A DNA stretch of 64,000 bases from Escherichia coli (GTDB lineage Bacteria > Pseudomonadota > Gammaproteobacteria > Enterobacterales > Enterobacteriaceae), in assembly GCF_003018235.1 (NCBI RefSeq), contig NZ_CP027437.1; one strand, given 5' to 3'. Positions 60,001 through 63,000 of the stretch are shown piece by piece; the stretch's first letter is position 1; every line of letters starts with the position of its first letter. Position numbers: made by a program.

Positions 60001-63000
60001 TTAACAAAGGTTTTACCAAGAGAGTTGCGATTTTTTAATGTTGTTCTTGTACTTGTTGTCTTTTCGTTTTCGCTTCCTCATTTTTTTATTGCTCCAGCTG
60101 CTGATTATCGTTATCTGCATTTTTCAGTTGTTTGTGCAGTGGTTCAATTAGGAATGTTTTTGGGCTTTTTCTTTATGAGATTGTATAAAAGAGTGTATTT
60201 TGGGGCGATTAAATTGTTGGGTTAAGGGTGTTCTTCTGTTATCACATATTTTATCTATATATTTATAGGTTTATTAGATTGGGTAATTAAGTGTTGTCTG
60301 TATCTTGGTGCTCTTGTTGAATATGTTTTTTAGCCCAGCTCTAATTGTCTGTGCTTTTTTGCCTAAATTATTATTGATTTTTACTTTTTCCTTAATATTA
60401 ACTTAATAAATGAGGTCATATAGTAATGAAGTAAATCTGAATTGTGCCGTCGGTCATTGACATTTCATCAACTCAGACGTTACAACTTTTAATACATGTC
60501 ATGATGATGCAAACATGATGAGCAAAAGTTAACCCTGAGAAAATTAAATGAAAATCACTATTTCTGGTACCGGATATGTTGGCCTGTCAAATGGTATTCT
60601 GATTGCTCAGAGCCACGAAGTGGTGGCACTGGATATCATCCAGACGAAAATCGAGATGCTGAATCAGAAACAATCCCCGATTGTGGATAAAGAGATCGAA
60701 GAGTATTTGGCGACTAGGTCGCTAAACTTCCGTGCAACGACTGATAAGTGTGATGCCTACCGAGATGCGGACTACGTTATTATCGCGACACCAACTGATT
60801 ATGATCCAAAGACTAATTACTTTAATACCTCAAGTGTCGAGTCTGTTATTCGCGACGTGGTTGCAATTAATCCAGATGCAGTAATGGTAATTAAGTCTAC
60901 CATCCCAGTAGGTTTTACTAATTCTATCAAAGAAAAACTGGGCACCGAAAATATTTTCTTTTCCCCAGAATTCCTGCGTGAGGGTAAAGCACTATATGAC
61001 AACCTTTACCCATCTCGTATTGTCATTGGTGAGCGTTCAGAGCGCGCCGAGCGTTTTGCAGCTCTGCTACAGGAAGGGGCACTAAAGAAAGATATTCCGA
61101 CCCTATTTACCGACTCGACCGAAGCCGAAGCTATTAAGCTGTTCGCTAATACCTATCTGGCGCTGCGTATAGCCTACTTTAATGAGCTGGACAGCTACGC
61201 TGAAACTCTAGGCCTGAATTCACTACAGATAATTGAAGGGGTATGCTTGGATCCGCGAATAGGAAACCACTATAACAACCCGTCATTTGGCTACGGCGGT
61301 TACTGTCTGCCTAAGGATACCAAGCAGTTGCTGTCCAACTATGAATCGGTACCGAATAACTTAATCGGTGCGATCGTCGAAGCTAATCGCACTCGTAAAG
61401 ACTTTATTGCCGACTCTATTCTCGCGCGCAAGCCTAAGGTGGTGGGTGTTTATCGCCTGATTATGAAGTCGGGTTCGGATAACTTCCGCGCGTCCTCCAT
61501 TCAGGGGATCATGAAGCGTATTAAGGCCAAGGGTATCACGGTAATTATTTATGAACCGGTGATGCAGGAAGATGAGTTTTTTAACTCCCGTGTGGTACGT
61601 GACTTCGAAGCCTTTAAGCTGGAGGCAGACGTGATTATCTCCAACCGTATGGCAGAAGAGCTGGTGGATGTTGGAGATAAAGTCTATACCCGTGATCTGT
61701 TTGGTAATGATTAAACGTTAGTTTTTGTGTCGTTCTCGGCGGTGCTTCGCTTGGCCGGGCTATGTTAGAAAAAGCCCTCATCTTGGACTGCACCCCAAAA
61801 GTTGGACACCCAACTGATTAAGGTGCAGTTTTTTATGGCAAAGCCAAAATATTCTCTCGAAACCAGATTAGCTGTCGTTACTCATTATCTTGCCGGACAC
61901 GATGGCGCACGTCGTACCGCTGAACGTTTTGGTGTTGAAGAAACATCAGTGCGACGCAGGGTAAGAGCCTGGCAACTCCACGGTATTGATGGTATTACAT
62001 GGAAAAATGACCGCCATTCTCCTGAGTTTCGACTGACGGTTGTCCTGAAGTCTCTGAGTGAAGAACTTACCATGCGCGAAGCCGCCGCACGGTTTAATAT
62101 CTCCAATGAATCCGTTGTCCGGCACTGGGTGAAGGTTTACAAAGACACTAGTGAAGCAGGACTTCTGAACATAAAACCAGGCCGGAGCAAGGACATGACA
62201 AAACCTCTAAAAACACCTCCACTTACGATGAAGAATTGGAAAAGTTATCTCCCGAAGAACTGCGGGCGGAACTCCGTTACCTTCGCGCAGAGAATGCCTA
62301 TCTAAAAAAGCTGAAGGCCTTAGTTCAAAGCGAGAAAAACGGCAGAAAGCCCGGATAATCAGTGAGCTAAGGCTGAAGCATGCGCTCGGTGATCTTCTGC
62401 GTGCCGCGGGTATGTCCCGCAGTACGTGGTATCACAATATGAATGCCCTGAAGCGAGTGGACAGGCATGCCGGACTGAAAGACAAATCAGAGAGATTTAT
62501 CATTATCACAAAGGGCATTATGGCTACCGCAGAATCACGCTCTCACTGAGAAAATAGGGCGTGTTGGTAAACCATAAAACAGTGCAGCGGCTGATGGCAG
62601 AGCTGTCGCTCCGCTCTGTGATAAGGGTGAAGAAATATCGTTCCTGGAAAGGGGAAGTAGGCAAAGCTGCACCCAATATCCTGATCCGGAACTTTGGTGC
62701 AACGAAGTCCAACGAAAAATGGGTGACGGATGTTACAGAGTTCTCGGTACAGGGTAAAAAGCTGTACCTGTCGACAGTTCTCGATCTGTTTAACCGGGAG
62801 ATTATCTCCTACAGCCTGTCAGAAAGGCTGGTGATGGAGATGATTAATACGATGCTGCACGATGCATTCTCAGTGTTTGGACCGGAGGATGCACCGTTGC
62901 TGCACACGGTTCAGGGCTGGCAATATCGAATGGCAGGCTATCAGGCAACGTTAAAGGCCCATGGAATGACACAAAGTATGTCGCGCAAGGGAAACTGTCT

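What the first reader, a model, noticed from the sequence alone, without database searches (positions are those of the whole stretch)
60226..60547. AT-rich 320-bp spacer upstream of ugd with sigma70-like -35 hexamer
The spacer contains ttgaca (about 60455) followed by a weak -10-like hexamer. Because the island upstream is foreign, ugd regulation (normally integrated with envelope-stress regulators) may have been rewired by the insertion.
Basis: inference. Interest (0 to 1): 0.25.

Follow-up and report, generated by a model that had tools for sequence, protein, structure and literature searches.

The report
Ordinary ugd promoter region, not rewired
The AT-rich gap in front of the sugar-nucleotide gene ugd is that gene's usual control region, with an old terminator, a binding site for the polymyxin-resistance regulator PmrA/BasR and a widely conserved core promoter, so the neighbouring foreign genes have not replaced its regulation.

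Summary
A 322-bp gap (60226-60547, 30% GC) precedes ugd. TTGACA sits at 60457-60462, followed 18 nt later by a weak -10, TACAAC.

The "rewired by the insertion" reading does not hold. Only the distal ~100 bp belong to the inserted gnd-ugd genes. The proximal ~215 bp align block by block with the E. coli K-12 gnd-ugd intergenic region and with those of Salmonella and Citrobacter. They contain:
- a relic gnd-type terminator (60333-60360);
- a perfect PmrA/BasR box, CTTAAT-N5-CTTAAT (60391-60407), with a TAnnnT -10 (TATAGT, 60419-60424) just downstream;

TTGACN-17/18-TANAAN is found at this position in 81 of 106 enterobacterial ugd upstream regions, against 0.5% of shuffled controls.

The ugd gene and its promoter form one divergent allele. 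It is 74% identical in DNA to K-12 and ≥95% identical in only 10 of 5426 E. coli genomes.

Two small lineage-specific changes exist: a G→T that weakens the terminator stem, and one extra base between the PmrA box and its -10. Transcription starts were not mapped.

Verdict: a known kind of element, of low interest.

The parts
60226..60325 (+). Distal spacer: the 3' flank of the inserted gnd-ugd gene block, with no counterpart in ordinary E. coli
   Evidence: Only 5 of 5426 genomes carry it. Matches to the KSC64-type allele start at 60326, and matches to ordinary E. coli start at 60388-60391.
60333..60360 (+). Relic gnd-type rho-independent terminator: stem GCCCAG (60333-60338) / CTGTGC (60349-60354), then a T-run (60355-60360). 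The stem is weakened by T at 60352, where relatives have G.
   Evidence: It aligns with the hairpin and T-run just after the gnd stop codon in K-12 and with 10 other Escherichia, Salmonella and Citrobacter sequences. Folding energy is -4.8 kcal/mol (z -0.9) here, -12.9 in KSC64 and -15.6 in K-12. The terminator scan does not call it.
60367..60379 (+). Conserved AT-rich block (ATTATTATTGATT) 12-24 bp upstream of the PmrA box. It may be an UP-like or alpha-CTD contact region; this is inference.
   Evidence: Invariant or nearly invariant columns in alignment A2. The PmrA cryo-EM scaffold likewise kept an 'upstream AT-rich sequence' of pbgP next to the box.
60391..60407 (+). PmrA/BasR box CTTAAT-ATTAA-CTTAAT: two direct hexamers 5 bp apart
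   Evidence: It is the only match to YTTAAK-N5-YTTAAK in the 64-kb window. It is identical in K-12 and nearly invariant in 15 clade sequences, 156-160 bp before the ATG. It matches the published box definition.
60419..60424 (+). -10 hexamer TATAGT of the predicted PmrA-dependent promoter P1. The start is predicted near 60431, giving a 5' UTR of about 117 nt.
   Evidence: T, A and the final T are invariant across the clade while the inner bases vary. The hexamer lies exactly 10 nt after the box in 15 relatives and 11 nt after it here. Published work places the pmra-box over the -35 of ugd. The start site was not mapped.
60433..60445 (+). Conserved block AAATCTGAATTGT, function unassigned. It falls at +3 to +15 of P1 and at -60 to -48 of P2.
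   Evidence: Conserved in K-12, Salmonella and Citrobacter. It does not match an RcsB consensus recalled from memory.
   Evidence: Each base is conserved in 70-90% of 106 loci. TTGACA is present in 70 loci, TTGACT in 7 and TTGACC in 4.
60481..60486 (+). -10 hexamer TACAAC of P2, 18 nt after the -35. The start is predicted at about 60491-60494, giving a 5' UTR of about 55 nt.
   Evidence: T, A, A and A are conserved in about 90% of 106 loci. The usual forms are TAAAAA (46 loci) and TAAAAC (25 loci), and the spacer is only ever 17 or 18 nt. The start site was not mapped.
60499..60521 (+). Small conserved hairpin in the 5' UTR (UCAUGAUG ... CAUGAUGA)
   Evidence: RNAalifold on 12 clade sequences predicts 8 pairs, 3 of which show a change on both sides. 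The evidence is weak: -5.5 kcal/mol. No Rfam family matches.
60537..60540 (+). Shine-Dalgarno-like GAGA, 7 nt before the ATG, inside the invariant block CTGAGA
   Evidence: Invariant columns in A2, read directly from the sequence.
60548..61714 (+). ugd, encoding UDP-glucose 6-dehydrogenase; a divergent allele
   Evidence: All three Pfam UDPG_MGDP_dh domains are present. The protein is 83% identical to K-12 Ugd. The DNA is 74% identical to K-12, 95.5% to KSC64, and at most 78% to any of 107 species loci. At least 95% identity is found in only 10 of 5426 E. coli genomes.

Best explanation
The spacer is the normal regulatory region of ugd, carried together with a divergent ugd allele. It lies downstream of a block of O-antigen side-branch genes that was inserted between gnd and the old gnd terminator. 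Read 5' to 3', it contains four things. (1) About 100 bp of insert-specific flank. (2) A relic terminator that once ended gnd and now ends the inserted genes. In this lineage a stem mutation weakens it. (3) A PmrA/BasR-dependent promoter, P1. The CTTAAT-N5-CTTAAT box takes the place of a -35, and TATAGT lies 11 nt downstream. Phosphorylated BasR would bind the box and recruit RNA polymerase when Fe3+ or mild acid activates BasS. (4) About 60 bp further on, a sigma70 core promoter, P2 (TTGACA-18-TACAAC), that is conserved across Enterobacteriaceae. It has a consensus -35 and a weak -10, and probably supplies basal or otherwise activated transcription. Both predicted transcripts include a conserved 5' UTR ahead of ugd. 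What the data show: the sequence elements, their orthology to K-12, and their conservation. What is inferred: the transcription starts, BasR binding and activity in this strain, and the relative use of P1, P2 and read-through.
For: The proximal spacer is collinear with the K-12 gnd-ugd intergenic region and with 10 further Escherichia, Salmonella and Citrobacter sequences. The terminator, box, TAnnnT, TTGAC, TAnAAC and UTR blocks are all conserved. The box fits the published definition of the PmrA box, and published work places that box over the -35 of ugd. TAnnnT lies exactly 10 nt after the box in 15 of 15 relatives. P2 is present in 81 of 106 species with a spacer of only 17 or 18 nt, against 0.5% of shuffles, and it gives a clear per-base footprint. 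The same promoter module (93% identical) sits behind a completely different gnd-ugd insert in strain KSC64, so it travels with ugd and not with the insert. The ugd coding sequence (74%) and the promoter (about 72%) have diverged from K-12 to a similar degree.
Against: No transcription start was mapped here, and I could not retrieve a mapped start for E. coli or Salmonella ugd. One K-12 start-site survey lists no start in the intergenic region under its conditions. P2 lacks the usually critical final T of the -10. Figures quoted second-hand for Salmonella place the 'RcsB-dependent' start roughly 12-20 nt upstream of my predicted P2 start, so equating the two is unsafe. No RcsB-consensus site was found. 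In this window the box-to-(-10) gap is 11 nt rather than the conserved 10, which may reduce P1 activity. The P2 -35 is degenerate in E. albertii and S. arizonae.
Confidence: 0.85

Rival explanations
1. One reading: the foreign insertion brought or created a new promoter and so rewired ugd away from its usual envelope-stress regulators.
For: The region upstream of ugd is low in GC and carries foreign genes. The distal 100 bp are insert-specific.
Against: The TTGACA promoter and the PmrA box both lie in the part that is orthologous to K-12, Salmonella and Citrobacter. P2 is conserved in 81 of 106 species. The same module sits behind a different insert in KSC64.
Confidence: 0.04
2. In this lineage ugd is transcribed substantially by read-through from the upstream side-branch operon. 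The terminator stem is damaged (T at 60352) and P1 has a non-standard 11-nt spacing.
For: The hairpin is -4.8 kcal/mol (z -0.9) here, against -12.9 and -15.6 in relatives. No terminator-like site is called on the + strand between 60226 and 60547. The +1 spacing is unique among 16 sequences. All genes from 53859 to ugd are on the same strand.
Against: The T-run and a partial stem remain. P1 and P2 are otherwise intact. The rate of read-through cannot be judged from sequence. The claim concerns how much read-through contributes, not whether the promoters exist.
Confidence: 0.15
3. Only the PmrA-dependent promoter P1 is functional. The conserved TTGACA...TAAAA is a protein-binding site or part of the leader and not a promoter.
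For: The -10 lacks the final T. A K-12 survey saw no start in the intergenic region. A pho-box-like direct repeat overlaps TTGACA in this allele (seen by eye, consensus from memory). A preprint reports a roughly 30% PhoB/PhoR effect on ugd promoter activity.
Against: Two hexamers conserved at a fixed 17/18-nt distance, with a spacer that varies in sequence, is the signature of a sigma70 promoter. The element is also present in the many genera that lack the PmrA box, where ugd would otherwise have no promoter.
Confidence: 0.08

Closest known systems
E. coli K-12 gnd-ugd intergenic region (between b2029 and b2028)
   Same: The order of elements is the same: terminator hairpin with T-run, AT-rich block, an identical CTTAATATTAACTTAAT box, TAnnnT, AAATCTGAATTGT, TTGAC(A/C), TA(C/A)AAC, the UTR blocks and the ATG.
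   Different: Identity over the shared part is only about 72%. Here an inserted gene block, not gnd, precedes the terminator. The terminator stem is weakened. The box-to-(-10) gap is 11 nt rather than 10. P2 is TTGACA-18-TACAAC rather than TTGACC-17-TAAAAC. There is a 5-nt deletion in the UTR.
Salmonella enterica ugd (pmrE/pagA) promoter, controlled by PmrA, RcsB and PhoP (Mouslim & Groisman 2003; Aguirre et al. 2000, as cited)
   Same: The S. arizonae sequence has the same PmrA box at the same distance from the ATG (159 against 157 bp). TAnnnT lies 10 nt after it, and the downstream blocks match.
   Different: The Salmonella PhoP and RcsB sites could not be located here. The original papers were not available, and the RcsB consensus test found nothing. 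A sequence like the PhoP box (consensus recalled from memory), overlapping the terminator, is visible by eye only in S. arizonae.
PmrA-dependent promoters of pbgP/arnB and pmrC, as studied structurally (PMC3973317, PMC4660055, PMC10570014)
   Same: Two XTTAAY hexamers 5 bp apart, in direct orientation, replace the -35 and sit a short distance upstream of a -10.
   Different: Both half-sites here are the high-affinity form CTTAAT, whereas pbgP has CTTAAT/CCTAAG. A second, box-independent promoter lies downstream.

Membership tests
PmrA/BasR-activated promoter | Two hexamers XTTAAY (consensus CTTAA-N5-CTTAA) separated by 5 nt, as direct repeats | tested here: met
   CTTAAT-ATTAA-CTTAAT at 60391-60407 is the only match in the window.
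PmrA/BasR-activated promoter | The box overlaps or replaces the -35 and lies a short fixed distance upstream of a -10 hexamer | tested here: met
   TATAGT starts 11 nt after the box. TAnnnT lies exactly 10 nt after the box in 15 of 15 relatives. Published work says the box overlaps the -35 in ugd. The one extra nucleotide here is a deviation.
PmrA/BasR-activated promoter | Phospho-PmrA binds the site, and transcription is induced by Fe3+ or mild acid in a pmrA-dependent way | not testable with these tools
   This needs EMSA or footprinting and expression assays. basRS lies outside the window.
Sigma70 core promoter (P2) | -35 and -10 hexamers resembling TTGACA and TATAAT, 17 +/- 1 nt apart | tested here: met
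   TTGACA (6 of 6), 18 nt, TACAAC (4 of 6, without the final T). The tool's stricter scan omits it because it requires a T at position 6.
Sigma70 core promoter (P2) | The hexamers and their spacing are conserved among orthologous upstream regions while the spacer sequence varies | tested here: met
   Found in 81 of 106 loci, with a spacer of 17 nt (15 loci) or 18 nt (66 loci) only, against 0.5% of shuffles. Per-base footprint.
Sigma70 core promoter (P2) | A mapped transcription start 6-9 nt downstream of the -10 | not testable with these tools
   No usable start-site data could be retrieved.
Rho-independent terminator | A GC-rich stem-loop immediately followed by a T-run | tested here: inconclusive
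   The T-run and the orthologous position are conserved. However, the stem is broken by T60352, and the fold is -4.8 kcal/mol with z -0.9. The scan does not call it.
RcsB-activated promoter | An RcsB box (TNRGAN4TCYNA, recalled from memory) just upstream of the -35 | tested here: not met
   No hit with up to 1 mismatch in 60226-60547. [quoted passage not shown] RcsB control is therefore not claimed for this allele.
Ortholog of the K-12 gnd-ugd intergenic region | A collinear alignment between the upstream gene's terminator and the ugd ATG | tested here: met
   2970 E. coli genomes match 60391-60532 at about 72%. Block-by-block alignments.

The most novel reading that the evidence does not exclude
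Two lesions are peculiar to this O101/O162-type lineage: the G-to-T at 60352 in the terminator stem, and the extra base between the PmrA box and its -10. Together they might shift ugd from BasR-controlled initiation toward co-transcription with the upstream 4-deoxy-arabino-hexose side-branch operon, coupling UDP-glucuronate supply to O-antigen decoration. Separately, the conserved 5'-UTR hairpin and its tiny ORFs (60499-60535) could be an undescribed post-transcriptional control element of ugd.
Probability: 0.1. Interest if true: 0.3.

Novelty: already known. Interest (0 to 1): 0.1.

Why it matters
It matters little beyond annotation. ugd supplies UDP-glucuronate for colanic acid and for the aminoarabinose modification of lipid A that gives polymyxin resistance. 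It is therefore useful to know that a rare, imported ugd allele still carries an intact PmrA/BasR box and the pan-enterobacterial core promoter. The result also shows that gene blocks inserted between gnd and ugd land upstream of the old gnd terminator and leave ugd control in place. As a by-product, the survey shows that TTGACA-17/18-TAAAA(A/C) is a near-universal ugd promoter in Enterobacteriaceae, whereas the PmrA box is confined to the Escherichia/Salmonella/Citrobacter group.

Tried and rejected
1. The consensus promoter scan lists TTGTCT-18-TATTAT at 60345-60374. I rejected it. Its '-35' is the descending arm of the terminator stem, and its '-10' is TCTTAT in relatives, which lacks the essential A.

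2. I looked for mapped ugd transcription starts. The Cappable-seq supplement had no hit. Kim et al. 2012 list only a 2-read start inside gnd and no Klebsiella entry. The Thomason 2015 and Conway 2014 data are not held. The primary Salmonella papers are not held either.

3. I tried to equate P2 with the Salmonella 'RcsB-dependent' start using second-hand distances: the PhoP site 145 nt upstream of the start, and the PhoP and PmrA boxes about 65 bp apart. The arithmetic misses my predicted start by 12-20 nt, so I make no claim.

4. An RcsB-box search found nothing in the spacer.

5. An Rfam search of 60100-60700 gave only a chance-level snoRNA hit, E = 0.93.

6. Donor of the allele: none of the 107 species loci is more than 78% identical to this ugd. 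I ran no further search on finding the donor.

7. Short ORFs in the spacer (20-33 aa) show no conservation pattern of their own, so I did not pursue them.

Full report
**Context.** The window is an E. coli chromosome segment. It runs from the colanic acid cluster through galF and a low-GC, wzm/wzt (ABC-transporter) O-antigen cluster of the O89/O101/O162 family. Next come gnd (52312-53718), seven further same-strand ORFs (53859-60225), the spacer, and ugd (60548-61714). After ugd lie IS remnants and hisIE.

**Observation.** The spacer runs from 60226 to 60547, which is 322 bp at 30.1% GC against 47.5% for the window.
- TTGACA is at 60457-60462. It is followed by 18 nt and then TACAAC (60481-60486).
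- Taken alone this is not beyond chance. The scan finds 11 promoter-like sites against 10.9 expected and does not list this one, because the -10 lacks a final T.
- The relaxed pattern occurs once in 64 kb against 0.65 expected.

**How much of the spacer is foreign.**
- The complete spacer exists in only 5 of 5426 complete E. coli genomes.
- Five more genomes (KSC64 type) share 60326-60700 at 93%, although they carry a different set of genes between gnd and ugd.
- In a sensitive search, 2970 genomes match 60391-60532 at about 72%, in their own gnd-ugd intergenic region.
- Alignment with K-12 and with 11 Escherichia, Salmonella and Citrobacter sequences (A2) shows collinearity from about 60333 to the ATG.
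- Only 60226-60325 is specific to the insert.

**Elements found, 5' to 3'.**

1. *Relic terminator (60333-60360).* This is a hairpin plus T-run, orthologous to the structure directly after the gnd stop codon in K-12.
   - The inserted genes therefore entered between gnd and its terminator.
   - In the window, T at 60352 replaces a G present in all 11 relatives. This lowers stability to -4.8 kcal/mol (z -0.9), against -12.9 in KSC64 and -15.6 in K-12.

2. *AT-rich block (60367-60379).* It is conserved across the clade.

3. *PmrA/BasR box (60391-60407).* CTTAAT-ATTAA-CTTAAT is the only YTTAAK-N5-YTTAAK match in the window.
   - It is identical in K-12 and nearly invariant in the clade.
   - It fits the published PmrA-box definition: two XTTAAY or CTTAA hexamers 5 bp apart.
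   - Published work states that the box overlaps the -35 in pbgP, ugd and pmrCAB.

4. *P1 -10 (TATAGT, 60419-60424).* A TAnnnT hexamer lies exactly 10 nt after the box in 15 of 15 relatives and 11 nt after it in the window. Its T, A and final T are invariant while the inner bases vary. This is the footprint expected of a -10. I call this promoter P1 and predict a start near 60431.

5. *Unassigned block (AAATCTGAATTGT, 60433-60445).* It is conserved, but no function could be assigned.

   - In 81 of 106 usable upstream regions, TTGACN-N17/18-TANAAN lies within 150 bp of the ATG.
   - The spacer is 17 nt in 15 loci and 18 nt in 66 loci, and never any other length.
   - The -10 is TAAAAA in 46 loci and TAAAAC in 25.
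   - The same pattern appears in 0.5% of shuffles.
   - Per-base conservation peaks sharply on the two hexamers.
   - Hexamers at a fixed distance with a variable spacer sequence are the signature of a sigma70 promoter. I call it P2 and predict a start at about 60491-60494, giving a UTR of about 55 nt.
   - The PmrA box is restricted to the Escherichia/Salmonella/Citrobacter group (13 loci). Klebsiella, Enterobacter, Kosakonia and others have P2 only. [quoted passage not shown]

7. *5' UTR.* It is conserved, with a small hairpin (60499-60521; 8 pairs and weak covariation) and an invariant CTGAGA Shine-Dalgarno region. No Rfam family matches.

**The ugd allele.** ugd itself is not native in the K-12 sense.
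- Its DNA is 74% identical to K-12 along its whole length, 95.5% to KSC64, and at most 78% to any of the 107 species loci.
- The protein is 83% identical to K-12 Ugd.
- Only 10 of 5426 genomes hold an allele at least 95% identical.
- The promoter (about 72%) and the coding sequence (74%) have diverged to a similar degree, and the pair occurs behind two different inserts. The promoter-plus-gene module therefore moved as a unit from an unidentified donor that has the Escherichia/Salmonella/Citrobacter-type architecture.

**Interpretation.**
- Two changes private to this lineage could alter expression quantitatively: the weakened terminator and the +1 spacing in P1. They leave room for more read-through from the upstream operon. 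I rate this a minor possibility.

**Limits.**
- No transcription start is mapped.
- The primary Salmonella papers and most start-site datasets were not retrievable.
- One K-12 survey shows no intergenic start under standard growth. That would fit a promoter that needs activation, but it proves nothing.
- Second-hand distances for the Salmonella RcsB-dependent start do not fit my P2 start exactly. No RcsB consensus site is present either. I therefore do not assign an activator to P2.

**Verdict.** This is an ordinary, already characterised kind of regulatory region: the ugd promoter with its PmrA box. It is preserved in a rare allele, and its interest is low.

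Noticed in passing
window 53859-60225: These are the genes between gnd and ugd. 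They encode a DAO-family FAD oxidoreductase, two proteins with no Pfam hit, a xylose-isomerase-like TIM barrel, a small SMR/EamA-like membrane protein, a GT2 glycosyltransferase and a 456-aa membrane protein with no Pfam hit. [quoted passage not shown] (PMC7685785) propose as candidates for the 4-deoxy-D-arabino-hexose side branch of O162. Here the first gene after gnd is intact and no IS is present, which is O162-like. Strain SCPM-O-B-9504 has IS4/IS3 at that spot, which is O101-like. The pathway for this sugar remains unidentified.
   Followed up: partly
window 60352 and about 60414: Two changes are private to this allele among 12-16 aligned relatives. One is a G-to-T in the terminator stem. 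The other is one extra base between the PmrA box and its -10, giving 11 nt instead of the otherwise invariant 10.
   Followed up: yes
window 60499-60535: The conserved 5'-UTR hairpin overlaps tiny ORFs: ATGATGATGCAAACATGA and ATGATGAGCAAAAGTTAA here, with equivalents in K-12. Their ATG, TGA and TAA fall in conserved columns. Whether they have any function is unknown.
   Followed up: partly
window 60451-60468: CGGTCAT-TGAC-ATTTCAT resembles a pho box (11 of 14 positions, consensus recalled from memory) and overlaps the P2 -35. It is not conserved in K-12. A preprint reports a roughly 30% drop in ugd promoter activity in phoB and phoR mutants.
   Followed up: no
window 61715-64000: There is no wzz (cld) gene after ugd. 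Instead there is a frameshifted IS3-family transposase and an IS200/IS605 fragment, then hisIE on the minus strand. This was placed by collinearity with NZ_CP144930. It fits an ABC-transporter O-antigen, which does not need Wzz.
   Followed up: partly
window 16880-16893 and 16960-16973: Two near-matches to the RcsB/RcsAB-type consensus (TAAGAAATATCGCA and TAATATAATTCTTA) lie upstream of the first colanic acid gene at 17377. They are probably the known Rcs control site of that operon.
   Followed up: no
window 53753-53779: A hairpin, AAGGCCATCTTACAGGGTGGCCTT, lies about 35 nt after the gnd stop codon. It has no T-run, so in this strain gnd is separated from its ancestral terminator.
   Followed up: no
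L031 (E. coli E69) and many loci L004-L110: Some E. coli strains (E69) carry a ugd with the Klebsiella/Enterobacter-type upstream region, which has P2 only and no PmrA box. PmrA control of ugd is therefore allele-dependent within E. coli.
   Followed up: partly
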